From an uncultured Candidatus Poseidoniales archaeon (GTDB lineage Archaea; Thermoplasmatota; Poseidoniia; Poseidoniales; Thalassarchaeaceae), in assembly GCA_964401115.1 (NCBI GenBank), contig CAYNXD010000052.1:14-64013 (forward strand): a stretch of DNA of 64,000 bases, read 5' to 3'. The notes beneath the pieces are model-generated. The model was not told the DNA's origin, made no database searches, and saw only the letters and a program-made list of their open reading frames with translations. Shown piece by piece: positions 36,883-54,115 of the stretch (its first letter is position 1; the number at the start of each line of letters is the position of its first letter). The translations under genes and the position numbers were made by a program.

Positions 36883-37887
36883 ATGGACCCGTACAAAATG
36901 GTAATTTCATGCACCAACCAAAAGGGTGGATGTGCAAAAACTACCACTGCAGTTAACGTGGCCACTGCATTGGCAGAAGGTGATCCCTCAAGGGGCATTG
37001 AACCTTCCAAAGTACTGCTGGTTGATCTGGATCCACAAGGGAGTGCATCAACCTCATTTGGAATAAACAAAAGCAAACTAGAACGTACCGTGTATGATTT
37101 ACTGATGAACGACCTAGGTGAAGAATTACCAATTATCAAAGATTATCTAATAGGGCCAGAAATAATTACAGATTCAATGAGAGAAACTTGGATGAAGGCA
37201 AATGATGGAAAGAAACTCTCTAAGGCAAGGAAAAAATCATTGAAAGTTGAAAACCTGTGGCTTCTACCATCAAACATCCAATTATCAGGGGCTGAAATCG
37301 AATTAGCTACCAGAATTGGACGAGAAACTAGATTGAAAGAAGGTCTAGCATCTGCAATAAACGAGTTCGACTATATCATTATCGACACACCTCCGAGTTT
37401 GGGGTTGCTGACTATCAACGCACTAGCTGCATCTAATTGGGTTATGATTCCAGTTCAGACCGAATGGTATGCATTGGAGGGGATGAGTCAATTGATTAAT
37501 TCAATAAAGTTGGTTCAGATGAGAATAAACCCTAATCTCAAATTATTCGGTATCGCTTTGACGATGTATCAGCTGAGGAATAATCTAAGCAAAATAGTTT
37601 CCAAAGAAGTACGTGGATCAGCTTTCCATAAGGAAGTCTTTAGCACCATGATCCCTAGAAATTCTGACATCGCAGAAGCACCAATGGAAGGTGCTCCGGT
37701 CGTTTTGTTAAAAAAAGGAAATAGAACAAATAAAGGATCTCAAGCCTATTGGTCATTAGCCAAAGAAGTTTCTGATAGAGTAAAGAAAATGAGACATAAG
37801 TATGGAGTTTATGAAAAAAATCATTTAAAAATCCACAAATTAAACCAATCTAACGAAGACGATGCTTTGTCCGAACAACTAGAATAA
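36883..37887 (+). CDS. ParA/Soj-family partition ATPase (deviant Walker A) with internal insertion
   Basis: Deviant Walker A NQKGGCAKTTTAVNVATALA, LLVDLDPQGSAS, IIIDTPPSLG; ~50-aa insert relative to canonical Soj. Confidence 0.75.
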   Translation: MDPYKMVISCTNQKGGCAKTTTAVNVATALAEGDPSRGIEPSKVLLVDLDPQGSASTSFGINKSKLERTVYDLLMNDLGEELPIIKDYLIGPEIITDSMRETWMKANDGKKLSKARKKSLKVENLWLLPSNIQLSGAEIELATRIGRETRLKEGLASAINEFDYIIIDTPPSLGLLTINALAASNWVMIPVQTEWYALEGMSQLINSIKLVQMRINPNLKLFGIALTMYQLRNNLSKIVSKEVRGSAFHKEVFSTMIPRNSDIAEAPMEGAPVVLLKKGNRTNKGSQAYWSLAKEVSDRVKKMRHKYGVYEKNHLKIHKLNQSNEDDALSEQLE

Positions 37888-37900
37888 TCATACTAATGAG

Positions 37901-38203
37901 TTGTCAACTCACCGTCAAACTTCTATAGATGTCCTAAACCAACAGGGTTTAGGTGAGTTAATGGGTTCTCCAGATATGACATCAGTTAGTGTGAGTTTTG
38001 AAGTACGAAGGCAGTTAAATTCTATGCGGGCATTAGAAAATTACCAAAGCGTAGATGATCTTCTTCAACATCTTTTGAAGACCTATAGATTGAATAAACT
38101 CAACAGAGACAGTGAATCTCTTCAGGATTCCTTGAAATCGTTAAATGACGTGGATGTTAATGTTCTAATCTCTAAACTCGACCTATCGCCCTTCAAGGAG
38201 TGA
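37901..38203 (+). CDS. small ribbon-helix-helix (CopG/Arc-like) protein, candidate ParA partner
   Basis: Predicted beta-strand VSVSFEV followed by two helices (RRQLNSMRAL; SVDDLLQHLL); immediately downstream of parA and overlapping the next small ORF by 4 nt. Confidence 0.4.
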   Translation: MSTHRQTSIDVLNQQGLGELMGSPDMTSVSVSFEVRRQLNSMRALENYQSVDDLLQHLLKTYRLNKLNRDSESLQDSLKSLNDVDVNVLISKLDLSPFKE

Positions 38204-38460
38204 ATCAAATGAAGGGACAAGCGCCGTCATACTGGATTACTGCTGAGAACCTCGTTCGTGGCTTATTTGATGACATGAGTGATGAGCAGACCCTACTCAA
38301 ATTAGCATCTTGTAACGTAATAGAATTGCATGCGGGGAATAAAGTTTGGAATTCTTTTCTGTGGTTGCTTGTCAACCATATGAAGAGAGAAGGCGTACCT
38401 ATTCTTTCTGGTAAAGATTTGGGCGATTTACGAAGTCGCCTACCGATAGTTTTCCATTGA
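38200..38460 (+). CDS. hypothetical small protein (GTG start) co-transcribed with ParA/RHH pair
   Basis: Overlapping stop/start with the upstream ORF; no recognisable motif. Confidence 0.3.
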   Translation: MNQMKGQAPSYWITAENLVRGLFDDMSDEQTLLKLASCNVIELHAGNKVWNSFLWLLVNHMKREGVPILSGKDLGDLRSRLPIVFH

Positions 38461-38463
38461 AAA

Positions 38464-41022
38464 TTATTCTTTGTTATTGGCTTCCCACCACTGATGTCCG
38501 TAGTATACCCATTGCTCCATAGTCCAACCCATGGGCAACCCCCCTTCTGGTAGTTCAGGTGCCCCAGCTGGTAATTCGGTTGTAGTTGTCGCTGGTGTTG
38601 GTTGTTCCTCTACGGCAATGGGTTCTGGTTCTGGTTCTGGTTCAGGGGCTGTTGGGGATGATCCCTCGGTCAATCTCTGGATTAAGTCTGCCTTCTTACC
38701 AGATACTGGAAGACCTGCAGCCTTCAGTTGCTCTTTGAGTTGGGCCACTGTCATTGATTCGAAATCTGGAGTCCCGGAGTCAGGAACTACCGAACCATCA
38801 TCACTTTCTTCGAAGGAACTAGCATCGGGAACGACGCTAGGTTTGGATGCGGTATCATCATCAATATCCCAAAGTTGGTCTTCAGTAACACCATCACCTA
38901 GTTTTTCACCTTCCCATCCTTTCTCATCAGTAATACCACCTCGTGATTCGAATTCTTCACCCTCTTCCCATGCTTGCAATTCTTTTGTGGCATCCTGATG
39001 AGTATATTGTGCATCTGTGGCTCGCTTCGACACTGAAGTTCTTATCAGTCCAATTAATCCCCACATCGCAAGAATACCTGCAATAAGAGCAATACCAATT
39101 CCTCCACCATAAATTAGAAAATCTTTGATTAATTTATTCCTTTTTTCACTAGAAGATAACTCGCTATTGTCATTGTTGCTATCATCTAGTACATATTCTA
39201 CTTCACAATTATTGATATCATCTGAATATTTGTTACAATATTGATCTAACGTCCATACAGAAGGGTCGAGATCGTCCCAATCAGCATTATCTCCAACTCC
39301 GTCCCTGTCACTATCCACCCATTCAGATTTATTTGATGACCAATCCTGAGGTGGGTTTTCTGTTCTTTCACCACTATCTTCATACCCATCGCCATCTGAA
39401 TCAATACAACCAAATCTCTGAATTGTGACATACTTGTTCTGCTCAAAATCAAAGACAATCCCTCTAGTGCTATTGCCCCATTCATTAGGGCACCAATCTG
39501 GATTATTTCCATTCAGATTGTCACCATAGTTGTCATCATCTGTATCACACCATTGTGTATCATCTTGGGGATATTTGTCTGGGCCATTTGGATTAATTTC
39601 GGTGCATGGTATTTCGCCTTGTCTTGGGTTACTATATCCATCGCTATCTGAATCTGGACAGCCATTCCGGTCCTTGTTCGAATTACCAGGTGAATCTACA
39701 CAATCGTCAGGATTGGTACCATTGGGATTGTCCCCCAATCCATCACCATCACTGTCAGACCATTGTGATGAATCATTCGGGAAAGTATCGCCATCATAGC
39801 CGAGTGTATTATCGCCGTAGCCGTCACCATCACTGTCAATATACTGGTCCGCATTATTAGGGAAGGCATCTCCGTTTGTACCTCCGGGATTATCGCCCTT
39901 GCCATCGCCATCCGAATCTAGCCATTGACTAGGATCTTCGGGGAACCTATCTGGATTATTACCATTGGAATTGTCACCATATCCATCGCCGTCTTGATCT
40001 GTCTGTTGAGTTGAATCATGAGGAAAAGCATCAACTACATCTACTACTCCATCACCATCATTATCTGTATCAAACATCAAAATATCTGATTTGTCTGAGA
40101 ATGATGCTAGAACAAAGAATGAAGACCCTAGCCCTGACTTAATTCCAACTACATCGCCAAGTGAAGAGAACGACTCAATTTCTGACAAACTGCTACCATT
40201 GAGTATTGTCAAGTGGCCGTTGTGTGCTCCAACTAACAAATCACCGTTATCAGATTGTATTACTGTACGAATAATTCCTCCAGTTGAAAGTGTAATATCA
40301 CCAGTTTTTTGCCAATCTGTCGTAGAATATTTCAGTATTTGGCCGTCAACTGATGTTGCCAATAGGCTAGCCCCGTCATCGATAAGATATAGGCCTGAAA
40401 CCTCACCTTGAATATGCATCAAATCAGTATTTTTTGTCCCATTGCTTCCATAAGAGACACGGACAATTGAGTCCCTACCACCAGTAATAACAGAGCCATC
40501 TGAAAGACAAATTATGTTTGTGAGTTTAATTGAATGTTGTTGGGTGGTGACTTGAGATTCTGTTGTATCTTCAAACTTCATTGCAAAACCATATGCTCTA
40601 TCACTAACCCAAAGTTCCCCTTGACTACCCCAACTAACTGCATCAACACCACTTGAAACTGGAATAGTGTATAACATTGAATGGAGTTCAGTAGAAATTA
40701 CTCTTACCCCATTATCAGTACTCAGTGCCAAGCGATGTTGGACATTATCGATAGCCCCACTATTTATTGCAACACCAAGAGAGAGGTTCCATACTTTAGT
40801 TAATGCCCCACTCGCCTCAAAATCATAAGCTGCTATTTCTCCTGTGTTATTTGCAATTATTGTTAGCCCATCGTAGGATTCCCACCACCCCAACGTACTA
40901 TCCTCAAATTCAGTAATTGAGCCAGCGTTACCAAGGCTAGAAGCGGATGCAGGAGTTGATGCCATTAATGGTAATAAAATCGCAAGAATCAAAATTATAG
41001 TCAGTCCAAACTGGCGACGCAT
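38464..41022 (-). CDS. type-I membrane surface protein: signal peptide, beta-propeller-like domain, thrombospondin type-3 calcium-binding repeats, single TM, cytoplasmic acidic tail with SAP/HeH motif
   Basis: N-terminal signal MRRQFGLTIILILAILLPLMASTPASA; >10 DxDxDGxGD repeats (DSDGDGYGDN etc.); TM LIYGGGIGIALIAGILAMWGLIGLI followed by R/K; cytoplasmic MTVAQLKEQLKAAGLPVSGKKADLIQRL matches SAP/Rho-N HeH consensus; PEPEPEPEP linker and Trp-rich C-terminus. Confidence 0.7.
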   Translation of the reverse strand: MRRQFGLTIILILAILLPLMASTPASASSLGNAGSITEFEDSTLGWWESYDGLTIIANNTGEIAAYDFEASGALTKVWNLSLGVAINSGAIDNVQHRLALSTDNGVRVISTELHSMLYTIPVSSGVDAVSWGSQGELWVSDRAYGFAMKFEDTTESQVTTQQHSIKLTNIICLSDGSVITGGRDSIVRVSYGSNGTKNTDLMHIQGEVSGLYLIDDGASLLATSVDGQILKYSTTDWQKTGDITLSTGGIIRTVIQSDNGDLLVGAHNGHLTILNGSSLSEIESFSSLGDVVGIKSGLGSSFFVLASFSDKSDILMFDTDNDGDGVVDVVDAFPHDSTQQTDQDGDGYGDNSNGNNPDRFPEDPSQWLDSDGDGKGDNPGGTNGDAFPNNADQYIDSDGDGYGDNTLGYDGDTFPNDSSQWSDSDGDGLGDNPNGTNPDDCVDSPGNSNKDRNGCPDSDSDGYSNPRQGEIPCTEINPNGPDKYPQDDTQWCDTDDDNYGDNLNGNNPDWCPNEWGNSTRGIVFDFEQNKYVTIQRFGCIDSDGDGYEDSGERTENPPQDWSSNKSEWVDSDRDGVGDNADWDDLDPSVWTLDQYCNKYSDDINNCEVEYVLDDSNNDNSELSSSEKRNKLIKDFLIYGGGIGIALIAGILAMWGLIGLIRTSVSKRATDAQYTHQDATKELQAWEEGEEFESRGGITDEKGWEGEKLGDGVTEDQLWDIDDDTASKPSVVPDASSFEESDDGSVVPDSGTPDFESMTVAQLKEQLKAAGLPVSGKKADLIQRLTEGSSPTAPEPEPEPEPIAVEEQPTPATTTTELPAGAPELPEGGLPMGWTMEQWVYYGHQWWEANNKE

Positions 41023-41104
41023 AGAACCTTGAAACGTGTTTTACCTTTCAATGCGGCGATTACCCGATTATCCAAGAAATTGGCAATCTGATACCATTTT
41101 TGAC

Positions 41105-43657
41105 TCATTCTTCCTCTTGTTCTTCTGACTCAACCGGGGTAAGAGTTGGCGTAACTGGAGTTAATTTTGCAACCTCTGATGGAGTCAGTATCTTACCACT
41201 GGTTTGTACAGGGCGCAAGGTAGCCGCTTCGCCTGTTTTAGGTTGTAATACCGGCCTGCTAACTGGTTTTAGAACATCTACTTTAGGTGATGCAGTGTCT
41301 TGTTTTGGACTTCTATCTAAATCTAGAATTGACGACTCCTCGTCTCTGATTAATCGTCCGCCACCTGGTGGCCCACGCTTTGGTTTATCAAGTGATGGCG
41401 CATCTTCTTGTGGAGGAGTCCTAACTAAGGCACCTCCACCTGGTGGCCCTCTAGATACCTTTTCTAGTATTGATGATGTGTCTTCTTCATCATCCCAATC
41501 ATCCTCTTCGACAATCTCAGGTGTTGTTGAAGGCAACTCCCCTCCAAGAGGTTTATGATCGACTATTTCACCTTGAGACGAAATCTCTTCCTTAGCAATA
41601 TCACTTAGAGACCGCTCGGGTTTATCAGGTGCGGCATCAATCTTGACTGGTGGCCTTACTGGAGATAGTCTGTCTGCTGAGGTAGAACCTATTGTAGGCC
41701 TAGGAATTGATGTTGCTGGCGTCACATCTTGCTTTTGACCGATAGGCGCACGGGCTGGAGCCAAACGCCCACCACCTTCGGGCTTGAGTGGTGTGCGTGT
41801 TTGAGCAGGGGCGCCCGTACCTAAACGAGCGGCGCTGGGTTGCCCCAGACGAGCGCCACCAAGTAAGCCACCGGCATCCCCTCCGGTTGCTGTCTCAGGC
41901 ATCTGTCCTTGAGCACCTTGTAATGCACCAATCCATCGCTCCCTTCGGGCGAGGACACCATCTTGAGACTCAAGATTTTCAACCTCTTCTTCCATCTGCT
42001 TGAGTCGAACTTCTTCTTCCAAATCTTCCTCGGATACTAGATTTCGTTCAAGTTGCCCTCTAATTTTCTCTTCGGCGACTTGCTTAAATTCTTCAGAACG
42101 TTGTTCTAGTGTGGCTAGACGCTCACGAATCTCTGTTCTCTTGACTGAAAGTTGCGCTTCAATTTCTGCCCTAATCTCTGCTTCCCTTCTTCGGACTTCA
42201 ATTAGTGCCTTGTTACGCATGATTTCTTCTCTCTTTGCCAATTGTCTCTCTAATTGATCTGTGACCTCATCTTCCTTACGGCTACGGAATTCCCTCAAAC
42301 GGGCCTCCATTTCAACTTCAAGTTCCATAGAAGTTTCCTGCTTTAACAAATCGAGTGATGTTTCTTGAGAAATTTTCTCATTTCTCACACGAGCATCAAT
42401 CTCAGCCATGATTTGACGTTGGACCGCTGTTTCTTTTGCTCTAAACTCCTGCTCCAATTGATCAATCCACTCTTGTTTTCGAGATTCAAATGAAGATGAC
42501 AGTTGCTCCCGTAATTCAATTTCTCTATCATGTCGGAATCTAGATAATCTGCTAGAAATTTCTGACTCGCGTGTCCTGCGATAAGCCTCAAAATCATTTG
42601 ACATTTGAACATCTAGATTATCTTCAATTTCAAGACTCAAGGCGTGCTCAATTTCATCGATTGACTGGCTGAAAGTCAAATCATACTTCTCACGCAGACG
42701 CTGTTTCCGTTCAGCTATGCGTTCCCCATATTGTTTCTGGAGTTCTGTCAAAATCGATGACCTTACTTCGTCCCTCTTTCTGGCCACAGCTAACTCAAGA
42801 TCCTGTTGCATTCTCTCTTCAAGTTTTTCAGTTTCAGATGTTAGCCTCTGTTCAAGTTCATCCTGGAGATCCTTTGCAATCTCTTCTTCAAGACGATGTG
42901 CCCTGTGTTCATATTCGCTCCTCAAACGAGCTTCACGTGCGCGCAGGCGTCCGCGCAGTTGCTGCTCTAGACGCCGTCGAATTCCATCACGCAACTGTAT
43001 TTCTCTTTCAGCAAGACGTGCTTGTTGTTCAGATTCTATAGTTTCAGATTGAATTTCCTCTTCAGATTTGAGTTGATTTTCCATTTCATCCTTCAATTCT
43101 GATTCAAGATTACTCAATTGTTCTTGAAGGGCTTGATTGGCCTCGATTTCCATCTTCTCTTGAAGGAAGGCGCGCCGACGTTCGAACTCTTGATCCATTT
43201 CATCAGAGAGTTGAGTTTGAATTTGGTCTCTACTTGCTGAAAGACGACGTTCTCTTTCCACTTCCAGTTGTTCTTTGAGGGATATCTCCTCCCTCTCTAA
43301 TCGCATATCTAATTCTTCACGAAGTATCTCTTCTTCTCTGCCGAGAGTTTCTTTCTCAAGTCTGGAAAGTTCTGATTCCATCTCCTCTCTCATTTCCGAT
43401 TCTAGATTTGTGAGAATTGATTCGTGCTCTAATTGCAGAGCCCTACCCATTGCACCTTTTGCAGTGCTGATTCTTTCAGCCTGCTCTTTAATCCTGAGTC
43501 TGCGCTCTCTTGTAAGATTTCTACGAAGTGATTCTTCTTCGTTTAGATTTGCAGAAATCTGACCTGCCCTATCTGCTGACGGAGATCCTGACCCTGTAAT
43601 TTGATGGCGTAATTCTGCGAGTGATTGATTGTCGCCAGCAACTACACTCTTCTTCAA
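41105..43657 (-). CDS. 850-aa Glu/Arg/Leu-rich long coiled-coil protein with Pro/Gly-rich C-terminal tail containing RGPPGGG repeats
   Basis: ~600 residues of uninterrupted E/R/L/Q heptad-like sequence without Walker or catalytic motifs; C-terminal low-complexity tail with two RGPPGGG copies; no TM. Confidence 0.6.
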   Translation of the reverse strand: MKKSVVAGDNQSLAELRHQITGSGSPSADRAGQISANLNEEESLRRNLTRERRLRIKEQAERISTAKGAMGRALQLEHESILTNLESEMREEMESELSRLEKETLGREEEILREELDMRLEREEISLKEQLEVERERRLSASRDQIQTQLSDEMDQEFERRRAFLQEKMEIEANQALQEQLSNLESELKDEMENQLKSEEEIQSETIESEQQARLAEREIQLRDGIRRRLEQQLRGRLRAREARLRSEYEHRAHRLEEEIAKDLQDELEQRLTSETEKLEERMQQDLELAVARKRDEVRSSILTELQKQYGERIAERKQRLREKYDLTFSQSIDEIEHALSLEIEDNLDVQMSNDFEAYRRTRESEISSRLSRFRHDREIELREQLSSSFESRKQEWIDQLEQEFRAKETAVQRQIMAEIDARVRNEKISQETSLDLLKQETSMELEVEMEARLREFRSRKEDEVTDQLERQLAKREEIMRNKALIEVRRREAEIRAEIEAQLSVKRTEIRERLATLEQRSEEFKQVAEEKIRGQLERNLVSEEDLEEEVRLKQMEEEVENLESQDGVLARRERWIGALQGAQGQMPETATGGDAGGLLGGARLGQPSAARLGTGAPAQTRTPLKPEGGGRLAPARAPIGQKQDVTPATSIPRPTIGSTSADRLSPVRPPVKIDAAPDKPERSLSDIAKEEISSQGEIVDHKPLGGELPSTTPEIVEEDDWDDEEDTSSILEKVSRGPPGGGALVRTPPQEDAPSLDKPKRGPPGGGRLIRDEESSILDLDRSPKQDTASPKVDVLKPVSRPVLQPKTGEAATLRPVQTSGKILTPSEVAKLTPVTPTLTPVESEEQEEE

Positions 43658-43835: not shown

Positions 43836-44252
43836 TCAAAATGTAACTTTGAATGACTCTTCGCAGGCAGGGCATGAAATTTCTCTTGAACCCGGCCTTG
43901 GCCTTAGTCTAAGCCTACGTTCGCAAGCAGGGCATGATATCTCTACCTTAACCACCTTCGAAATTATTGTAAATTGATTTGCACAGGATGAACAAGCCAC
44001 TTTCGCAGGTCGATCATCAACCCCAGATACCAATACTTTGGAACAAGATGGGCAAGCAACTCTCTCTTCAGCCCATTCTTTTCTAGTTTCTTCATGCTCA
44101 ATGCGTGACACTGCGCCACATAATGTACAGGTCTTTTCGCCGAGACCTAGGGGTAGCAATCCATCGCAATTTGGACAATTAATTAGAGGGGGCGCTATTG
44201 TTGATTCAACTTCCAATGATTCTGGCGCATCGCCTATGCCATCATCACTCAA
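43836..44252 (-). CDS. multi-zinc-ribbon protein (four CxxC...CxxC modules)
   Basis: CPNCDG...CTLCGA; CPSCSK...CSSCAN; ISCPACERRL; ISCPACEESF; the last two modules are a recent tandem duplication visible at nucleotide level (43855-43945). Confidence 0.55.
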   Translation of the reverse strand: MSDDGIGDAPESLEVESTIAPPLINCPNCDGLLPLGLGEKTCTLCGAVSRIEHEETRKEWAEERVACPSCSKVLVSGVDDRPAKVACSSCANQFTIISKVVKVEISCPACERRLRLRPRPGSREISCPACEESFKVTF

Positions 44253-47755: not shown

Positions 47756-50700
47756 TCATTCTTCCTCATACAATGACGGTGTTGAAGTAATCACTTCGGG
47801 AGGGGGGCCTGCCCATTCAGGCCAATTATCCAGGCCCCAAGGTGGTGGTGGAGGCGTTTCTTCTATTTCCTCTTCATCATCTTCATCCCAATCCTCCTCA
47901 ACACGTTTTGAAATAGCAATTGCCATCACCATTACTGAAATGATTAAAATCAAAAATCCAAAGGCCATTGGAGTATTTATCGATGATAAAAAGGCCTCAC
48001 CTGTGGTTTGTTCTCGCACTAAACCAACAGGTACACTAGTCAAATTATTAGGATTATTATTTAGTACGATATAAAGTTGTAAATCACCAGCACTCCATGC
48101 CTCTACATTGAATGTGAATAGCGCGTGCTGCTGCGGCAATAATGAGATGTTTGTCTCATTAATAGTGATGTATCGGCCCCCATCGCCACTAGATTGCCAA
48201 GTCCACAAACCTACATTCGTCACACCCATATCATTACCTTCATTGTAAACTCGGCCATTGATAGTAAAAATCGTGTCCAGTGTTGGTTGATATGGATTTA
48301 CAGTCAAATCTGAAATAATAGGGTGGAAATAAATGACCCGCAGTTGTGGCATTCTTGGGTCATCTTCACTACCCACTCCAACGAATGAATGACCTGCTAA
48401 GTCTCTACCCTCTACCCACACTACCAAACTATCCCCGGGACTTAGTAACGTGTGATTAATATCGAAATCTATCCGAGTAGAATATGTCCAAATTCCATCA
48501 ATATTCGTTGCTAACGGTAGTTCGGCAACACCATGCATATCTAGAATTTCTACCCCATGCCTTCGGAAGGACCAATGCAAATTTAATGAATTATGATCCA
48601 TTCCACCAACTTCATGAATTTGAATTGTGACCAATTGCTGCGACATTTGATTAGAATTGATTGAACTCAAAGTAGCATTTGGAAAAGCAACTACTGGTGC
48701 GATGGAATCAATTACTAAATCTAGATTCATTGAACTAATTGGGACCGTCGAAACCCCTCCAGACAGCGTAGCAGTCACTTTTGCAACCCCATCATTCCAA
48801 CGAAACTGTGGAACTTGCGTTGTTGTTGTGAATATATGACCCGCACTGAGTTCTACGTCCCAAATCTCTGGTTCGTTTTGGCTATCATCCATACTAATGG
48901 TAACAACCCATTCCCCATCCAGTGTTACATTTTCTTGATTAGCCATATGAATCAGCCGACCTGAGAAATTGAAGCGGTCATCAGGTTGCAAATAGAGTGT
49001 TTGCTCTACTAAACCAACACCCGGAGGGGTGAGATCAAATGCCTGATCAAGAACTAAACCAGCCCTACCATCTGTTGTCCAAGCAAGATGGTTCAAAGTG
49101 CCACCCCCTAGCTCCAATAATTGACCATGTTCAACAATAGAAATACTCGGTGCTTGTGGAGTCAAATTCCATGATTGAGGGGCATCCGCCCCTATACGAA
49201 ATTGAATTGCCACATTGTACGAACCGCCTGCAAGTTCTGAGATCGTTACTCCAAGTGGAATTATTGGTGATGCTTCATTTACAGCAATTTCACCAGATAA
49301 CGGAGTAATCCAAATATCACCAAGAGGGTCCCCGGTTGCGAGATTTACGGAAATGTTGTCAAGTGAGATGATTCCATTACCATCTGATAATGAGAACGAA
49401 ATTTCATGTGTAGTCCCCACAAGCAGATTATCACCCCACCTATCTATTCGAATAGAGGGTAGTGAGAGTATTGTAGGGAGGTCCGCTTGCGTGGTGATCG
49501 TTGCCATATCATTATCTAAACCGGGTCCACCACCTTGCTCAACCGGATGGCCCGCTAAATCAGTCCCCGTCACATACAGAGATACCCTGCCCATCTCTCC
49601 ATTTCCAATTAAATCGATTGCAGGGAAATCTACTCTTACAGTACCCTGTGCCTTCATAGGAGTAATTTGTCTAGAAATTGAGTATTCCCAATCATCAGCC
49701 TCAGAGTCGCCATCGACATCATCAATCCCTTCCCTCCAAACACGGAGTTCCAATGGCCCTCCAAACGATTCGGTTTCAGTGACTTCTACAGAAATTGGTA
49801 ACAAACGATCTTCTGGCCAAACGTTTCCATCTGCTAATCTAACACCACTAGGGGTATGTACCATCAACGGAGATAGAATTGGTGGATTGGAATCTATCAT
49901 CAAAGTCACTGGCGTTCTATCTTTTGTTTCATCTGTTGCACCATTTAGAGAAACGCCGCTAGGACCTGGCCTAAGTATCCATGATGTTAGGTTAATTTCA
50001 CCACTGTTTTCATTGAGAGTTACTGTTGCATTCCAGTATCCATCTTCGCCACTCAAAGCTGCAACTTGGTAATCAGAAGATGCCCCCTCAATTTGAATTG
50101 TGACCAAGAAATTATCATTTGATGGCCGCATATTTGAATCTTCAAAACGGACCGTGCCCGATACTTTAACCAAAGAACCGGAGGCTATCTCAAATGGATA
50201 AGATGGAGATTGACGAGTAGAAAGAAGACGATTGTCAGCACCCCTGACTTCCCAAGAATCTATCTCCATGTCATTTTCAACCGCTTTGGAAACCGTTCCA
50301 ATTCTGACATTATCAGCAGGTAAATGTTCCCCATTAATCCCCCATGATTCTGCTGAGATATCTATCCAGTCAACATCATCCCAGCCCCATTCAGTTTGTA
50401 ATTCCCACTTAATTCGCCAGCCATTATCAATTTGCATAACTGAACTAGCTGTAGAATTTATTGAGATTTGGCCACCACCCCCATATTGGTAGAATACCCC
50501 CCCAGAATCTAGATTTTCTGCTTCAAAGGTGATCAAGAAACCTTCTTGGGTTAGGAGTGAAAGATTTGCGCGCACAAGTTCATCTGCTGAAAACAAATGT
50601 GTGTGCTCTGTAGTTATGATTGTCTTCCTATCAGGTAACCAAGTCTGGGGAACTGATACGACTTCATTGACGATTAGTGGTTCGTGCTCTACACCGCCCC

Positions 50701-53700
50701 ACAAAGAGACACCACCTGCTTCAGCAGTCACCGTTACCGGGATTTCATGCATACCATTTACTGCTGATGTAGAATTCATTGACGAAGAAATTGTTTGGCC
50801 GAGATTAGATATGTTCTCCTTCAAAATATAATTGATTCCGTAAATTATAATCTGTGTTGGGCCAGTTGAATCTAAGGAAATTGGAACTTGTTTCCAATCT
50901 CTTGAATCATTAGGCCATTGATTGGCAGCCAAATTGTTGATTGATTGAATTACTCCTGAATTAAGAGGGACCATTAATCCAATATCATTGGGTAACGTTT
51001 GTTGATTCAGAAGTAATGAACCACCAATTGAAAGGTTTAGAATCACAGATTGTTGATTGGTTTGAACCCCAACCAGACCCCCTGTAACAATTGCCCCCTC
51101 TGGAATTAGAAGGTGCGCGGGGTTCTGATTATTAGATTGGATATCTACTGTTGCCGCCCTTGAATTGGAATTCATCAGAGAATCCTGCCAACCTAGTTGG
51201 CCACGCCCATCATTTCCTTCAGAAAATGCCCATTCTATTGAGCCATCATTTCCAACATCAACAGAGACATTCAGCCCTGGTTGTAATAATCTCCCTTTGA
51301 CTTGGAGTGACTGTAGCCATGCTCCTGGTTGCAAGTTAATCTGAATTCTGTATGCAGTTAGTGGAGTGTTTCTCTGCACTGTTACGTTGCTCAATGCTCC
51401 ACTGTAAAATGGGACATCCCTCTCGTCTAGAAGTGTAACGATGGTTCCCAAACCGTAACCAGAGATATCGAAGGAACGTATTGGATTGTTGCCATAAATA
51501 AGTGGCCCTAAAATTGAACTTGTGGATAAACTAGGGTTCGTCAAATTACCAGATGATTTATTCAACTCTAATGATGGAGATACCGTCCAACCGTTAGTTG
51601 CATCTCTAGCTGAAAAAATGCCAACTGCACCAAGATATAATCCGTGAATCGTGGGTGTTAGTTGAGGGATGTCTGTGCCCATTTCTAATTTTATTCTCAT
51701 CTTAGAATCAAGCGCACCCGGTAATGGAATTACAGGGAAGCTTAGATTTTCCATCCCTGGTGCAACGGAACCATTTTCGTACAACAAAGTACAACGTATC
51801 CATGTCCCGTTTGGAACTGTTGCATCTACGTCGATTGCCCCCATACTACCCCTATTCGTGTCAATTGGATCGGATATCCAAGTACCATGCTCTTCAAACC
51901 AATCAACATAGAGACCTACGTCATCAAGATACCAACCGTCTGATTCCAAGAACTGATCTGTAAAGAATGAAAATCTAAGGCGAATACCTTGACCACTAAA
52001 TTGGGTTACATCTGCTTGTTTGGTTTCCCATGATTTGTTAACACCCGTACCTCTTTGACCATTACATGTGGGTACTGAATTGCTGCCATCAAAAGCCCAT
52101 AAATTGTATATCTCTGAGTATGGATTCATGGTTTGCCTAGAATCATAGAAATTTGGTTCATTAGCACCGTAAGGAATCCAATTGCGTCCGTCATCATTGG
52201 AAATGTACAGCACCCCCCCATCCCAATACTGCTCAGCACAAACAAATTGTTTGAAGGAAATTCTAGCATGACTATTTGCAGGAACGTTAAATGTTGGAGA
52301 GATTAGATGTGTCCAAGTGTCTGGACGATACAATCCCCCGAATTCAATTCCAGCATAATGCGAACCGTTCGCAGGAGCATCTGGGCCGTAATTCCATGTG
52401 TTATTATGTGAGCGGAATTCCCAACCTTCTCCCCTAATAGTATCTATTCTCCACCCTTCTGGTAAAAGTGGGGCATCTTCAAATGAATCTACTTGAAAAC
52501 TCGGTCCATTGATTCCGTAAAAAGGTAAATATTGCCACTCGTCATATCCATTCCCAATACTTCCATGGTATGCATTGCCATCATTAATATCTGAGAAATT
52601 TAGGTTTAGGTGAGTTGTCTGATTACCAGCTGTTCCAGAAGTCACGATTACATCATCTATGAACAACCCTTCAGGTGGGTTCATCGTTAATCCGCCATAA
52701 CCAGTTCCGGGAAAATTGTCGGTCTCAATATTTACCCTCAAGAATACTGATGAGTTCCCTGCTAGTGTTTGAGGAAGTGGATGAGAGAGGTGTCTCCAAC
52801 CATTTGAATCATCTACATATCTCACCCCACCGATAACAACTCCGAATCCAGGCATATCTGCAGAGAATGAATTCCAAGTGAAATTATTGATAGACCATTC
52901 CCATCGGAAATTGTCATAAATGTCCCCTTCCATGTCAAAATCTGCAGCATAATCTAACATTATTGGACCACTTGCATTTGAAAGATTAACTTCGAATGAA
53001 AGAAATGAAGAGGAGCCATCAAAATAAGGGCCGGTCAAATTACCATGAAACCATGCACCTGCATCAGCACCAGAATTTGTTAGATTTAGATTATCTATAA
53101 ACCAACCAGGGCGCTGTACCGTTGAGTTCAAATCAGTCCAAGCAACAAAACGGAAGCGAACTGTACTAGCATTTGCAATTCCTGGATAATTGTCGAGATG
53201 GAAAACTGCCTGTTGCCAGCCTGTTGCATTGGGTGAAGCCCACACTTCAAAATTTGAGCCCCCACTGCCATTGGGTGATGGGGCCGCTGAATTTATTCGA
53301 TTGTTGTATCCTCCTTCTGGAGTGATGTAACTCCATGATTGGCCTCCATCAGTACTCATCTCAACCCAAACCCCATCAGCATTACCTGAACCAATTGAAG
53401 GAGTATACATGTGATGCCAATGTGAAAATGTTAGATTGAAACCGTTAATGACTGGTGGAACGTAAAAATCTGGTGAATCTATCCAAGTGTGGACTCCATT
53501 GGGCAATGACTGATCTGCCATTGTGGCAATTATGTAGCGGCCGGTTACAGCACCAATAGGGATTAAACCCCCGCTAGATTCTCTTGCAGAACCATTCAAT
53601 TGACCAGGGATTCCGAGCATATCACTTACTTCCCAGACCCCTGGCGTACCCCCTGTGGTCCAATCTTGCAAAGTACGTGTTAGAGATTCAAAATCATTGA

Positions 53701-54115
53701 TTCTACCTACTGAATGATTCGAATCTAAACTCAATGCACCATCAAAAAATTCAGTTGTTGTAGAATTCCATAAACCCCAACTAAAATTCAGTTTGCCTTG
53801 TGCCCCTTCTTCCCAAACAATACCAGTACCTAAATCTGAATTACTTGCTTCACCAACTTCAAGCCAAGCATCCAAAATTGTTTCACCCTCTGGTATTGAA
53901 AAACCTGTTATTGTAGTATTCCCCCCATTACCACCCAGGTCTGCTACGATTGGCCCTGACCAATTAGATAGAGTAGATGAAGCAAAAGGTGTCATAGGTG
54001 TTAGAATGAAAATTAAGACGATGAAAAATGAGCGCCTCGACATCGAATTACGCAACATAGGTCTGCCTCCGCACAATCCTGTGTGCCCTTTCTTGGTTTG
54101 AATGCTATCCAACAA
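47756..54115 (-). CDS. giant (2119 aa) secreted, C-terminally TM-anchored surface protein with Asp-box/BNR repeats and many N-glycosylation sequons; candidate S-layer/adhesin
   Basis: Signal-like N-terminus RRSFFIVLIFILTPMTPFASS; Asp-box motifs MSTDGGQSWSY and SNDDGRNW; abundant NxS/T; C-terminal TM AFGFLILIISVMVMAIAI then KR and acidic/Pro/Trp tail. Confidence 0.6.
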   Translation of the reverse strand: MLDSIQTKKGHTGLCGGRPMLRNSMSRRSFFIVLIFILTPMTPFASSTLSNWSGPIVADLGGNGGNTTITGFSIPEGETILDAWLEVGEASNSDLGTGIVWEEGAQGKLNFSWGLWNSTTTEFFDGALSLDSNHSVGRINDFESLTRTLQDWTTGGTPGVWEVSDMLGIPGQLNGSARESSGGLIPIGAVTGRYIIATMADQSLPNGVHTWIDSPDFYVPPVINGFNLTFSHWHHMYTPSIGSGNADGVWVEMSTDGGQSWSYITPEGGYNNRINSAAPSPNGSGGSNFEVWASPNATGWQQAVFHLDNYPGIANASTVRFRFVAWTDLNSTVQRPGWFIDNLNLTNSGADAGAWFHGNLTGPYFDGSSSFLSFEVNLSNASGPIMLDYAADFDMEGDIYDNFRWEWSINNFTWNSFSADMPGFGVVIGGVRYVDDSNGWRHLSHPLPQTLAGNSSVFLRVNIETDNFPGTGYGGLTMNPPEGLFIDDVIVTSGTAGNQTTHLNLNFSDINDGNAYHGSIGNGYDEWQYLPFYGINGPSFQVDSFEDAPLLPEGWRIDTIRGEGWEFRSHNNTWNYGPDAPANGSHYAGIEFGGLYRPDTWTHLISPTFNVPANSHARISFKQFVCAEQYWDGGVLYISNDDGRNWIPYGANEPNFYDSRQTMNPYSEIYNLWAFDGSNSVPTCNGQRGTGVNKSWETKQADVTQFSGQGIRLRFSFFTDQFLESDGWYLDDVGLYVDWFEEHGTWISDPIDTNRGSMGAIDVDATVPNGTWIRCTLLYENGSVAPGMENLSFPVIPLPGALDSKMRIKLEMGTDIPQLTPTIHGLYLGAVGIFSARDATNGWTVSPSLELNKSSGNLTNPSLSTSSILGPLIYGNNPIRSFDISGYGLGTIVTLLDERDVPFYSGALSNVTVQRNTPLTAYRIQINLQPGAWLQSLQVKGRLLQPGLNVSVDVGNDGSIEWAFSEGNDGRGQLGWQDSLMNSNSRAATVDIQSNNQNPAHLLIPEGAIVTGGLVGVQTNQQSVILNLSIGGSLLLNQQTLPNDIGLMVPLNSGVIQSINNLAANQWPNDSRDWKQVPISLDSTGPTQIIIYGINYILKENISNLGQTISSSMNSTSAVNGMHEIPVTVTAEAGGVSLWGGVEHEPLIVNEVVSVPQTWLPDRKTIITTEHTHLFSADELVRANLSLLTQEGFLITFEAENLDSGGVFYQYGGGGQISINSTASSVMQIDNGWRIKWELQTEWGWDDVDWIDISAESWGINGEHLPADNVRIGTVSKAVENDMEIDSWEVRGADNRLLSTRQSPSYPFEIASGSLVKVSGTVRFEDSNMRPSNDNFLVTIQIEGASSDYQVAALSGEDGYWNATVTLNENSGEINLTSWILRPGPSGVSLNGATDETKDRTPVTLMIDSNPPILSPLMVHTPSGVRLADGNVWPEDRLLPISVEVTETESFGGPLELRVWREGIDDVDGDSEADDWEYSISRQITPMKAQGTVRVDFPAIDLIGNGEMGRVSLYVTGTDLAGHPVEQGGGPGLDNDMATITTQADLPTILSLPSIRIDRWGDNLLVGTTHEISFSLSDGNGIISLDNISVNLATGDPLGDIWITPLSGEIAVNEASPIIPLGVTISELAGGSYNVAIQFRIGADAPQSWNLTPQAPSISIVEHGQLLELGGGTLNHLAWTTDGRAGLVLDQAFDLTPPGVGLVEQTLYLQPDDRFNFSGRLIHMANQENVTLDGEWVVTISMDDSQNEPEIWDVELSAGHIFTTTTQVPQFRWNDGVAKVTATLSGGVSTVPISSMNLDLVIDSIAPVVAFPNATLSSINSNQMSQQLVTIQIHEVGGMDHNSLNLHWSFRRHGVEILDMHGVAELPLATNIDGIWTYSTRIDFDINHTLLSPGDSLVVWVEGRDLAGHSFVGVGSEDDPRMPQLRVIYFHPIISDLTVNPYQPTLDTIFTINGRVYNEGNDMGVTNVGLWTWQSSGDGGRYITINETNISLLPQQHALFTFNVEAWSAGDLQLYIVLNNNPNNLTSVPVGLVREQTTGEAFLSSINTPMAFGFLILIISVMVMAIAISKRVEEDWDEDDEEEIEETPPPPPWGLDNWPEWAGPPPEVITSTPSLYEEE

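What the first reader, a model, noticed from the sequence alone, without database searches (positions are those of the whole stretch)
41105..43657. Trichohyalin-like Glu/Arg coiled-coil protein in an archaeon
About 600 residues of continuous E/R/L/Q-rich heptad sequence have no nucleotide-binding motif, so this is not an SMC/Rad50 protein. The sequence ends in a Pro/Gly-rich tail with two RGPPGGG repeats. Such proteins are candidate filament or scaffold formers. The placement directly upstream of a membrane protein with an acidic cytoplasmic tail suggests an electrostatic partnership.
Basis: seen in the sequence. Interest (0 to 1): 0.55.

Follow-up and report, generated by a model that had tools for sequence, protein, structure and literature searches.

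The report
Archaeal rod protein with 19-residue repeats
This gene encodes a long helical rod protein found only in the abundant, uncultured Marine Group II ocean archaea; its hydrophobic stripe repeats every 3.8 residues rather than the usual 3.5, which predicts an unusual right-handed coiled coil, and it is always paired with a membrane protein, making it a candidate for an undescribed archaeal cell-cortex scaffold.

Summary
ORF 41105-43657 (-) encodes an 850-aa protein with a 40-aa head, a ~500-residue continuous helix and a 270-aa disordered Pro/Gly tail.

The rod is not heptad-based. Residues 41-420 are 20 in-phase 19-residue repeats with hydrophobic period 3.80 (19/5, "nonadecad"). The 3.5 signal is at background. 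All 21 aligned homologues behave the same way, and rod length is fixed at 534-535 aa.

The family matches no Pfam, NCBIfam or PDB entry. It is confined to Poseidoniales (Marine Group II): at least 277 species genomes, and only three full-length clusters among 1.84 billion representative proteins.

The downstream type-I membrane protein is adjacent in 64 of 65 loci. An electrostatic partnership is unlikely, because both proteins are strongly acidic (-50 and -31). RGPPGGG is lineage-specific. The conserved tail motif is a repeated (A/T)LxPV.

The partner ends in an invariant Trp-rich cytoplasmic module, which also tags subtilases, PKD proteins and other surface proteins elsewhere.

Best reading: a right-handed coiled-coil cortical scaffold coupled to surface-protein tails. 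The anatomy is shown; oligomerisation and binding are inferred.

The parts
41105..43657 (-). Whole CDS of the rod protein (850 aa plus stop). TTG start; the homologues' 'MS.SES' start aligns about 10 codons upstream, where the window has CTG.
43538..43657 (-). Head, residues 1-40. Predicted disordered, with a small conserved motif (L13, L16, R17, T21).
42398..43537 (-). Nonadecad rod, residues 41-420. Twenty in-phase 19-residue repeats with hydrophobic positions 4, (8), 11, 15 and 19 (spacing 4-3-4-4-4) and period 3.80. Consensus: E-x-R/E-L-x-x-R-(E/L)-E/D-x-L-R-x-x-L-E/R-x-E-L. Sequence super-repeat of 38/76 residues.
   Evidence: continuous helix
42038..42397 (-). C-terminal rod block, residues 421-540. 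Still helical and the most conserved part (column identity 0.7-0.9), including KREEIMRNKALIEVRRRE..IRAEIEAQLG.KR.EIR.RL. The periodicity changes to a weak ~3.72.
41918..42037 (-). Acidic end of the rod and linker, residues 541-580, with invariant W575 (K-R-x-x-W-[LMI]-x-[AS]-[IL]).
41108..41917 (-). Disordered Pro/Gly-rich tail, residues 581-850 (pLDDT < 45). Five L.PV motifs begin at residues 664, 796, 814, 832 and 839, and the C-terminus is acidic (EEQEEE).
41432..41452 (-). RGPPGGG copy 1 (residues 736-742). A lineage-specific motif.
41357..41377 (-). RGPPGGG copy 2 (residues 761-767).
38464..41022 (-). Co-conserved partner gene, an 852-aa type-I membrane protein: signal peptide, beta-propeller, Asp-rich DxDxDGxGD Ca-type repeats, one TM, acidic cytoplasmic tail.
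39037..39117 (-). Partner transmembrane segment (residues 636-662).
38665..38766 (-). SAP domain inserted in the partner's cytoplasmic tail (residues 753-786). Present in only 3 of 65 other partners.
38467..38568 (-). Invariant Trp-rich C-terminal module of the partner (P.LP..GLP.GWT..QW.[WY]YG..W). The same module tags other surface proteins elsewhere: three shown in Poseidoniales contigs, 56 more in marine metagenome loci.

Best explanation
The gene encodes a structural rod protein specific to Marine Group II archaea (Poseidoniales).

Shown:
- It has a short head, one uninterrupted alpha-helix of about 500 residues (roughly 75-80 nm if extended) and a long disordered tail carrying several (A/T)LxPV motifs.
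- The first 380 rod residues are 20 in-register 19-residue repeats. Their narrow hydrophobic seam recurs every 3.80 residues.
- Rod length is invariant across the order.
- The gene always sits immediately upstream of a type-I surface protein. That protein's cytoplasmic tail ends in a Trp-rich module, and the same module is found on other surface proteins.

Inferred:
- A seam at 3.80 residues per turn cannot stay on one face of a straight helix. The rod must therefore wind right-handedly around a partner helix, most simply a second copy, giving a nonadecad (19/5) right-handed coiled coil with a pitch near 12 nm.
- The highly conserved C-terminal rod block is the likely site of higher-order assembly or partner docking.
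- The rod lies under the membrane as a cortical scaffold. It is coupled to the cytoplasmic tails of surface proteins, possibly through its multivalent Pro-containing tail motifs binding the aromatic Trp-rich module.
For: - The gene is real and under selection. There are 70 homologue clusters and 277 species genomes in GTDB, with all 80 listed titles Poseidoniales or MGII. About 100 alignment columns are invariant at ~40 % identity.
- Periodicity. The peak is at 3.795-3.80 with power 31.2 in the window protein and 49.8 for family-averaged hydrophobicity. Harmonics fall at 19/9, 19/3 and 19/6. Shuffles reach at most 11.9, and power at 3.5 is <= 2.6 in all 21 homologues.
- The phase is coherent over residues ~40-420.
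- The distant relative P0185 has the same period.
- Controls: tropomyosin gives 3.503, and the next-best of the 37 window ORFs reaches only 10.7.
- Sequence autocorrelation peaks at multiples of 19 (38, 76, 152, 133, 190, 114...), the one off-lattice lag among the top seven being 156; 38 and 76 are strongest.
- Continuous helix. AF2 gives helices 34-249 and 331-539 in the full-length model. The fragment 200-380 alone folds as one helix with pLDDT 93.7.
- Rod length is 534-535 aa in all 21 homologues.
- The literature defines 19/5 = 3.8 as a right-handed coiled-coil periodicity (PMC8016460). It gives 3.63 residues per turn for the free helix and describes 15/4 as already as right-handed as heptads are left-handed (PMC4786415).
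- Gene pairing. The partner is adjacent on the same strand in 64 of 65 loci, with gaps of 38-82 bp or a 4-bp overlap.
- The partner's module is invariant in 64 distinct partners.
- The module sits after the TM of subtilases, PKD, Ig-like and arylsulfotransferase-like proteins.
- L.P[VI] occurs in 66 of 67 tails at about 3 copies each; TL.PV occurs in 42 of 67 tails versus 1 of 67 when shuffled.
Against: - No oligomer was modelled or measured, so 'coiled coil' rests on sequence periodicity plus a monomer helix prediction.
- A period of 3.80 is more strongly right-handed than the pentadecads (15/4) that the papers read here cite as solved strongly right-handed examples, so such a rope may be strained.
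- Core positions 8 and 11 are only 36-57 % hydrophobic.
- The whole block is syntenic across the order (P-type ATPase, ArsR, Zn-ribbon, the pair, ParA operon, MoxR, aIF5B). Adjacency alone therefore discriminates poorly.
- Nothing here shows direct contact between the rod protein and the partner, or between the tail motifs and the Trp module.
- 56 of 80 module-bearing loci have no rod gene nearby.
- Both proteins are acidic.
- There are no expression or localisation data.
Confidence: 0.45

Rival explanations
1. It is a chromosome-segregation or polarity scaffold that works with the adjacent Soj/ParA-type operon. This would parallel Streptomyces Scy, a long non-heptad coiled-coil protein that recruits and regulates ParA. 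The membrane partner would anchor it, and through its SAP domain in some lineages would touch DNA.
For: - A ParA operon (36883-38460, ParA plus two small ORFs) lies convergent and immediately next to the pair in essentially all loci.
- The ATPase is Soj/ParA type, with PDB hits at 2e-57 and 1e-43.
- A SAP domain sits in the partner's cytoplasmic tail in the window (E 2.4e-13) and again in L046.
- Scy-ParA interplay is documented (PMC3718342), and Scy and FilP are non-heptad dimers (PMC9858780).
Against: - The ParA operon is on the opposite strand. It is part of a larger block that is syntenic across the whole order, so adjacency may be historical.
- SAP is present in only 3 of 65 partners.
- The rod protein has no DNA-binding domain and is net -50.
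- The partner's Trp module is shared with exo-enzymes that have no obvious link to DNA.
Confidence: 0.15
2. It is a non-polymerising tether or molecular ruler. A single coiled-coil rod of fixed ~80-nm length would hold its disordered, motif-bearing tail at a set distance from an anchor point, in the manner of golgin- or EEA1-type tethers or length-setting ruler proteins, rather than forming a lattice or filament.
For: - Rod length is strictly invariant at 534-535 aa in 21 homologues at ~40 % identity.
- The two ends differ: a conserved head motif and C-terminal block versus a long tail of short linear motifs.
Against: - Invariant rod length is equally typical of filament-forming rods such as intermediate filaments (general knowledge).
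- No cargo or second anchor is identifiable.
- Cells of this clade are thought to be small, so an 80-nm spacer would span a sizeable fraction of the cell (my own inference; cell size was not checked here).
Confidence: 0.15
3. It is the first reader's model: a trichohyalin-like Glu/Arg-rich heptad coiled coil or a charged single alpha-helix that pairs electrostatically with the acidic tail of the membrane protein.
For: The composition is E/R/L/Q-rich. AF2 predicts a monomeric long helix with high confidence, as it also does for single alpha-helices.
Against: - There is no heptad signal.
- A conserved one-residue-wide hydrophobic seam occupies about 26 % of positions. By general knowledge, charged single alpha-helices lack such a seam.
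- Opposite-charge i,i+3/4 pairs are not enriched (118 vs 106 +/- 8).
- Both proteins are net acidic.
- No sequence relationship to any known family was found.
Confidence: 0.07
4. The 3.8-periodic helix does not self-associate. Instead it wraps right-handedly around a different elongated partner, either another protein's helix or a cytoskeletal or nucleoprotein filament, acting as a filament-binding strap in the way tropomyosin or nebulin bind actin.
For: The long-range phase coherence and the 38/76-residue sequence super-repeat are what a periodic ligand would select for. The fixed length fits a strap measured against a partner.
Against: - No candidate partner filament gene is linked.
- There is no significant charge or surface periodicity at 19, 38 or 76 residues.
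- The narrow leucine seam is typical of helix-helix cores.
Confidence: 0.1

Closest known systems
Scy / FilP (Streptomyces intermediate-filament-like, coiled-coil-rich cytoskeletal proteins)
   Same: Prokaryotic head-rod-tail proteins whose very long rods are built from a regular non-heptad repeat and form dimers. They are cytoskeletal or scaffolding proteins, and Scy interacts with ParA (PMC9858780, PMC3718342).
   Different: - Scy and FilP use hendecad-based repeats (about 3.64-3.67, nearly untwisted) with Ala-rich cores, and carry a DivIVA-like N-terminal motif.
- This protein has 19/5 = 3.80 with a Leu/Ile core and no DivIVA or Filament Pfam hit.
- There is no detectable homology.
- It is archaeal and restricted to one order.
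Right-handed coiled coils with non-heptad periodicity (tetrabrachion stalk 11/3; YadA/SadA stalk segments 15/4)
   Same: Hydrophobic periodicity above 3.63 implies right-handed supercoiling. 19/5 is the next member of the 7+4n series named in the literature (PMC8016460, PMC4786415).
   Different: - In the papers read here, the solved right-handed examples are extracellular stalks: the tetrabrachion stalk and trimeric autotransporter adhesins.
- Strongly right-handed segments are described there as short or transitional.
- Here the 3.80 periodicity runs unbroken for 380 residues in a cytoplasmic protein, with a narrow, dimer-like seam.
- I found no paper describing a long natural nonadecad array.
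Eukaryotic intermediate filaments / lamins
   Same: Tripartite head-rod-tail plan, strictly conserved rod length, the highest conservation at the rod end, a disordered tail, and a submembrane location via membrane-protein partners (analogy only; general knowledge).
   Different: The geometry is not heptad-based, there is no Filament domain, no stutter/linker pattern, and no homology.
Trichohyalin and ER/K single alpha-helices
   Same: Very high Glu/Arg content and a long uninterrupted helix.
   Different: This protein has a conserved hydrophobic seam, shows no i,i+4 salt-bridge enrichment, and lacks an S100/EF-hand head.
Proline-motif recognition modules (WW, GYF, SH3): compared only with the partner's Trp-rich module
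   Same: A short aromatic-rich module beginning LP.GW, next to a protein whose tail is full of Pro-containing short motifs.
   Different: Pfam detects no WW or any other family even at E <= 10. The module is only about 25-30 residues and lacks the WW loop. Binding has not been tested.

Membership tests
Canonical (heptad) coiled coil | Hydrophobic periodicity of 3.5 (a/d positions) | tested here: not met
   Power at 3.5 is 2.6 in the window protein and 0.1-2.6 across all 21 homologues. Tropomyosin, used as a control with the same script, gives 3.503.
Non-heptad right-handed coiled coil (nonadecad, 19/5) | Hydrophobic periodicity of 3.80 with 4-3-4-4-4 spacing, sustained and in phase | tested here: met
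   The peak is at 3.795-3.802, with power 31-50 against a shuffle maximum of 11.9. Harmonics fall at k/19. The phase is coherent over residues 40-420.
Non-heptad right-handed coiled coil (nonadecad, 19/5) | Continuous alpha-helix over the periodic region | tested here: met
   AF2 gives helices 34-249 and 331-539. The fragment 200-380 alone folds as a single helix with pLDDT 93.7.
Non-heptad right-handed coiled coil (nonadecad, 19/5) | Two or more helices packed in a supercoiled bundle (knobs-into-holes or x-layers) | not testable with these tools
   Only single-chain prediction was available, and no coordinates are exposed.
SMC / Rad50 | Walker A/B ATPase head halves flanking the coiled coil; hinge or zinc hook (CxxC) | tested here: not met
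   No G....GK[ST] motif and no Cys at all. No Pfam or NCBIfam hit.
Charged single alpha-helix (ER/K; trichohyalin-type) | Dense i,i+3/4 opposite-charge pairs and no hydrophobic seam | tested here: not met
   118 opposite-charge pairs against 106 +/- 8 in shuffles. A conserved seam is present.
Bacterial IF-like / CCRP proteins (crescentin, FilP, Scy) | Sequence or profile similarity (Filament or DivIVA-like motifs) | tested here: not met
   No Pfam hit at E <= 0.1. The exhaustive profile search found only clade-internal hits.
Bacterial IF-like / CCRP proteins (crescentin, FilP, Scy) | Nucleotide-independent self-assembly into filaments | not testable with these tools
   This requires purified protein and EM.
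WW domain (partner's C-terminal module) | Match to the WW profile (two Trp about 20-22 residues apart, three-stranded sheet) | tested here: not met
   No Pfam family for seven module sequences even at E <= 10.
SAP domain (partner tail) | Match to PF02037 above the gathering score | tested here: met
   49.8 bits against a cut-off of 23.9, E 2.4e-13. It is present in only 3 of 65 orthologous partners, so it is not a feature of the system.

The most novel reading that the evidence does not exclude
Marine Group II archaea possess a previously unrecognised cortical cytoskeleton. An ~80-nm right-handed nonadecad coiled-coil rod, the longest natural array of this periodicity that I could find, would act as a hub. 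Its multivalent (A/T)LxPV tail motifs would capture a dedicated Trp-rich cytoplasmic tag carried by many type-I surface proteins (subtilases, PKD proteins and others). This would organise the cell's extracellular protein-degrading machinery from the inside.
Probability: 0.2. Interest if true: 0.85.

Novelty: new variant of a known kind. Interest (0 to 1): 0.66.

Why it matters
Marine Group II archaea are among the most abundant planktonic archaea in the surface ocean (general knowledge). They have no cultured representative, and I found nothing on their cell biology in the searched literature.

An order-wide, single-locus structural protein with no relatives elsewhere is a concrete handle on how these cells are built.

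For structural biology, a 380-residue unbroken 19/5 array would be a natural test case near the right-handed end of the coiled-coil periodicities named in the literature. It could be studied directly with recombinant fragments.

The side discovery may be equally useful. A short Trp-rich cytoplasmic tag is shared by subtilases, PKD proteins and other surface proteins. This suggests a common sorting or anchoring system for the exo-enzymes thought to underlie this clade's protein-degrading lifestyle (general knowledge).

Tried and rejected
- **Heptad and hendecad registers.** No signal at 3.5 or 3.67.
- **Single-alpha-helix signature.** Salt-bridge enrichment is not significant.
- **Hairpin or antiparallel fold-back.** The low-confidence stretch 250-330 in the full AF2 model suggested this. 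It was rejected because the fragment 200-380 folds as one helix at pLDDT 93.7 and the 19-mer phase runs straight through the stretch.
- **Surface charge periodicity at 19, 38 or 76 residues matching the predicted supercoil pitch.** Not significant (power <= 3.7, shuffle 95th percentile 6.5). The numerical coincidence between 76 residues and one supercoil turn was therefore dropped.
- **Remote homology.**
  - Pfam, NCBIfam and a PDB profile search gave nothing.
  - Foldseek against the PDB gave nothing.
  - The exhaustive profile search gave only clade-internal hits.
- **WW-domain identity of the partner's module.** No Pfam support.
- **SAP domain as a system feature.** It is sporadic, in 3 of 65 partners.
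- **A second copy of the Trp module in the window or in the loci around the rod gene.** None found.
- **Literature.** Searches on nonadecads, Poseidoniales coiled coils and archaeal IF-like proteins found no description of this family.
- **Split gene calls between the TM and the module (L090, L092, L093).** Not interpreted, because I selected short hits, which biases towards split calls.
Full report
**1. The observation**

The ORF exists exactly as given: 41105-43657 on the minus strand, 850 aa, TTG start. Residues 41-590 are 21.6 % Glu, 14.2 % Arg, 11.8 % Leu and 8.4 % Gln. The last 260 residues are 13.5 % Pro and 10.4 % Gly. Two exact RGPPGGG copies lie at residues 736-742 and 761-767. There is no Walker A motif and no cysteine. 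Pfam and NCBIfam give no hit.

The next gene on the same strand (38464-41022, 82 bp away) encodes an 852-aa protein. It has a signal peptide, weak beta-propeller matches, Asp-rich DxDxDGxGD repeats, one TM segment (residues 636-662) and a 185-residue cytoplasmic tail of net charge -31. These parts of the description are confirmed.

**2. What is wrong in the description: the periodicity**

I ran a Fourier analysis of hydrophobic residues (LIVMFYW) over residues 41-575.
- Power at the heptad period 3.5 is 2.6, which is background.
- A very sharp peak lies at 3.795 with power 31.2. The maximum over 300 shuffles is 11.9.
- Further peaks lie at 2.112, 6.33 and 3.17, which are exactly 19/9, 19/3 and 19/6.
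- The same script gives 3.503 for tropomyosin.
- Among the 37 ORFs of at least 200 aa in the window, the next-best peak is 10.7.

Written in rows of 19, the sequence shows vertical hydrophobic columns at positions 4, (8), 11, 15 and 19, with occupancies 0.68, 0.36, 0.57, 0.79 and 0.50. Position 1 is never hydrophobic. The spacing is 4-3-4-4-4. The phase of the 19/5 wave is coherent from residue ~40 to ~420, which is 20 consecutive repeats. It then drifts through the C-terminal block, where only a weak ~3.72 periodicity remains.

BLOSUM autocorrelation peaks at multiples of 19 (one off-lattice lag, 156, is among the top seven), most strongly at 38 and 76, so this is a true tandem-repeat array. 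Opposite-charge i,i+3/4 pairs are not enriched (118 vs 106 +/- 8). That argues against a charged single alpha-helix.

**3. Secondary structure**

AF2 on the full protein with a 21-sequence alignment gives helices 34-249 and 331-539 (pLDDT 80-93). The tail is disordered (pLDDT < 45). The stretch 250-330 is low-confidence.

That stretch carries the strongest 19-mer signal, so I folded residues 200-380 alone with the family sub-alignment. The result is one uninterrupted helix with mean pLDDT 93.7. The rod is therefore predicted as a single continuous helix of about 500 residues, roughly 75-80 nm long, and not a hairpin.

**4. Conservation and distribution**

- The word-indexed search returned 70 clusters, with E-values from 0 to 5.5e-63. 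All are unannotated.
- An alignment of 21 homologues at 39-84 % identity has about 100 invariant columns. All of them show the 3.80 periodicity. The rod is 534-535 residues in every one, so there are essentially no indels.
- The most conserved part is the C-terminal rod block, residues 421-533 (column identity 0.7-0.9). It includes KREEIMRNKALIEVRRRE..IRAEIEAQLG.KR.EIR.RL.
- A scan of one genome per GTDB species confirmed 277 genomes encoding a relative. All 80 listed titles are Poseidoniales, Marine Group II, Thalassarchaeaceae, Poseidoniaceae or their NCBI umbrella names. The closest are Thalassarchaeaceae-type MAGs at 89-91 % identity.
- An exhaustive HMMER profile search of 1.84 billion representative proteins gave only 157 hits. 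Three are full-length 50 %-identity clusters. Most of the others are short and many start at their own residue 1 in register with the query, which I read as fragments from short contigs.
- One distant 348-aa relative (P0185, E 4e-7) also has period 3.80.
- A profile search of PDB sequences and Foldseek on the model found nothing.

The family is thus an order-restricted orphan.

**5. The tail**

RG[PS]PP occurs in only 15 of 67 tails. The conserved feature is a repeated (A/T)-L-x-P-V motif.
- L.P[VI] is present in 66 of 67 tails, with 201 copies in total.
- TL.PV is present in 42 of 67 tails, against 1 of 67 when the tails are shuffled.
- The window protein has five copies, beginning at residues 664, 796, 814, 832 and 839.

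**6. The neighbour**

In four distant homologues the rod gene is followed on the same strand by an 800-840-aa gene. The gap is 38-81 bp, or a 4-bp overlap in L006. Across the loci with enough downstream sequence, the partner is adjacent in 64 of 65. In the exception, L060, it simply lies further downstream on the same strand.

The partners are orthologous at 33-37 % identity. They share the signal peptide, propeller, Asp repeats, TM, acidic tail and an invariant C-terminal module, P.LP..GLP.GWT..QW.[WY]YG..W.

Three caveats apply.
- The whole block is syntenic in the order: P-type ATPase, ArsR, Zn-ribbon, the pair, then a convergent ParA operon, MoxR and aIF5B. Adjacency alone is therefore weak evidence. 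The tightness and co-orientation of the pair, which survive local insertions elsewhere in the block such as a CDP-alcohol phosphatidyltransferase gene, are the stronger point.
- The rod protein is net -50 and the partner tail net -31. The proposed global electrostatic attraction is not supported. Only a few conserved basic 19-mers exist.
- The SAP domain in the window's partner tail (E 2.4e-13) is a sporadic insertion. It occurs in only 3 of 65 other partners, in what look like two separate groups of loci.

**7. The Trp-rich module is a portable tag**

A profile of the module found 330 proteins. The listed hits are all short or partial, and every named one is Poseidoniales, Thermoplasmatota or 'Euryarchaeota'.

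Three short hits on long contigs turned out to be the C-termini of other type-I surface proteins, none next to a rod gene. One of them is a 1118-aa PKD protein. Housekeeping proteins on two of these contigs are named Poseidoniales or Poseidoniaceae, and on the third Thermoplasmatota.

I classified the best 80.
- 9 are the rod-adjacent partner.
- 3 more have the partner's ectodomain, with the rod gene out of view.
- 12 have too little upstream sequence to classify.
- 56 carry the module at or near the end of other ORFs of 830-1654 aa.

In eight of the ten representatives examined a TM lies 59-135 residues before the module, with a net-negative linker (-2 to -23); no TM was detected by my simple scan in the other two; N-terminal hydrophobic segments consistent with signal peptides are visible in most. 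Their ectodomains include Peptidase_S8 + CARDB, arylsulfotransferase-like, PKD and Ig-like domains, and some have no Pfam match. Pfam does not recognise the module; there is no WW hit even at E <= 10.

**8. Mechanism**

Shown: the anatomy, the periodicity, the conservation, the gene pairing and the shared tag.

Established knowledge:
- Periodicities above that value force right-handed supercoiling.
- 15/4 is already as right-handed as heptads are left-handed (PMC4786415).
- 19/5 = 3.8 is named the nonadecad (PMC8016460).

Inference:
- A narrow Leu/Ile seam at 3.80 must wind right-handedly around a partner helix. The calculated twist is about 4.4 degrees per residue, giving a pitch near 12 nm.
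- The simplest case is a homodimeric right-handed rope.
- The tripartite plan, the invariant rod length and the hyper-conserved rod end resemble filament-forming rods.
- The operon partner and the shared cytoplasmic tag suggest that the rod lies under the membrane and couples to surface-protein tails.
- Whether the (A/T)LxPV tail motifs bind the aromatic module is a specific, untested hypothesis.

**9. Rivals**

- *A ParA-linked polarity or segregation scaffold.* The model is Scy, a non-heptad coiled-coil protein that interacts with ParA (PMC3718342, PMC9858780). The neighbouring ATPase is Soj/ParA type. However, the operon is convergent and the SAP domain is sporadic.
- *A non-polymerising tether or ruler.*
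- *A strap wrapped around a heterologous filament.* No surface periodicity was detected.

**10. Novelty**

Coiled-coil-rich scaffold proteins are a known kind. What is unusual here:
- a 380-residue unbroken 19/5 array;
- the absence of any relative outside one archaeal order;
- the link to a clade-specific cytoplasmic tag on surface enzymes.

I found no description of any of this in the searchable literature. I rate it a new variant of a known kind, interest 0.66.

Noticed in passing
window 38467-38568 (-); also L090:7001-7123, L092:6001-6204, L093:6001-6213 and L099-L172: A ~30-residue Trp-rich cytoplasmic C-terminal module (P.LP..GLP.GWT..QW.[WY]YG..W) is shared by many unrelated type-I surface proteins. 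These include subtilases with CARDB, PKD, Ig-like and arylsulfotransferase-like proteins. Three cases are in long archaeal contigs (two with Poseidoniales/Poseidoniaceae-named housekeeping proteins, one Thermoplasmatota); the rest are marine metagenome loci. 56 of 80 module loci are not next to the rod gene. Pfam does not recognise the module.
   Followed up: partly
window 36883-38460 (+): A three-gene operon lies convergent with the pair and is conserved in essentially all loci. It consists of a Soj/ParA-type ATPase (334 aa; PDB hits 2e-57 and 1e-43) followed by two small ORFs of 100 and 86 aa that overlap by 4 nt and have no family or solved relative. It may be a SegAB-like chromosome partition module.
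   Followed up: partly
window 38665-38766 (-); L008, L011, L046: A SAP (putative DNA-binding) domain is inserted in the cytoplasmic tail of the membrane partner. It occurs in the window's close relatives and again in a more distant locus (L046), but is absent from 62 of 65 partners.
   Followed up: yes
window 43836-44252 (-): A 138-aa protein made of several CxxC zinc-ribbon units lies upstream of the rod gene on the same strand in nearly all loci, just after an ArsR-type regulator and a P-type metal ATPase. In some lineages a CDP-alcohol phosphatidyltransferase gene is inserted between it and the rod gene.
   Followed up: partly
L090:5103-7123 and L091:95-1383: Two independent assemblies, one long-read polished and one short-read Logan, show the same frame break between the TM segment and the Trp-rich module of a surface protein. 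L092 and L093 show similar breaks. This may be selection bias, because I picked short hits, or a real frameshift site. It is unexplained.
   Followed up: no
window 47756-54115 (-): A 2119-aa ORF with an InhA-like MAM domain and a reelin-subrepeat-like match, probably a giant surface protein. Its C-terminus lacks the Trp-rich module.
   Followed up: no
window 41100-41558 (+), 42717-43052 (+), 43275-43562 (+) and others: Several 70-150-aa ORFs lie antisense to the rod gene. They are Ser/Arg-rich shadow ORFs of the repetitive GAA/GAG-rich coding strand and are very unlikely to be genes.
   Followed up: no
P0004 (homologue, 1085 aa) and P0095 (365 aa): In one lineage the Gly-Pro motif is expanded to at least three (K/R)GPPGGGKMVR copies. 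A 365-aa protein shares the N-terminal half of the rod with the same 3.8 periodicity and then diverges; it could be a short paralogue or a chimeric call.
   Followed up: no
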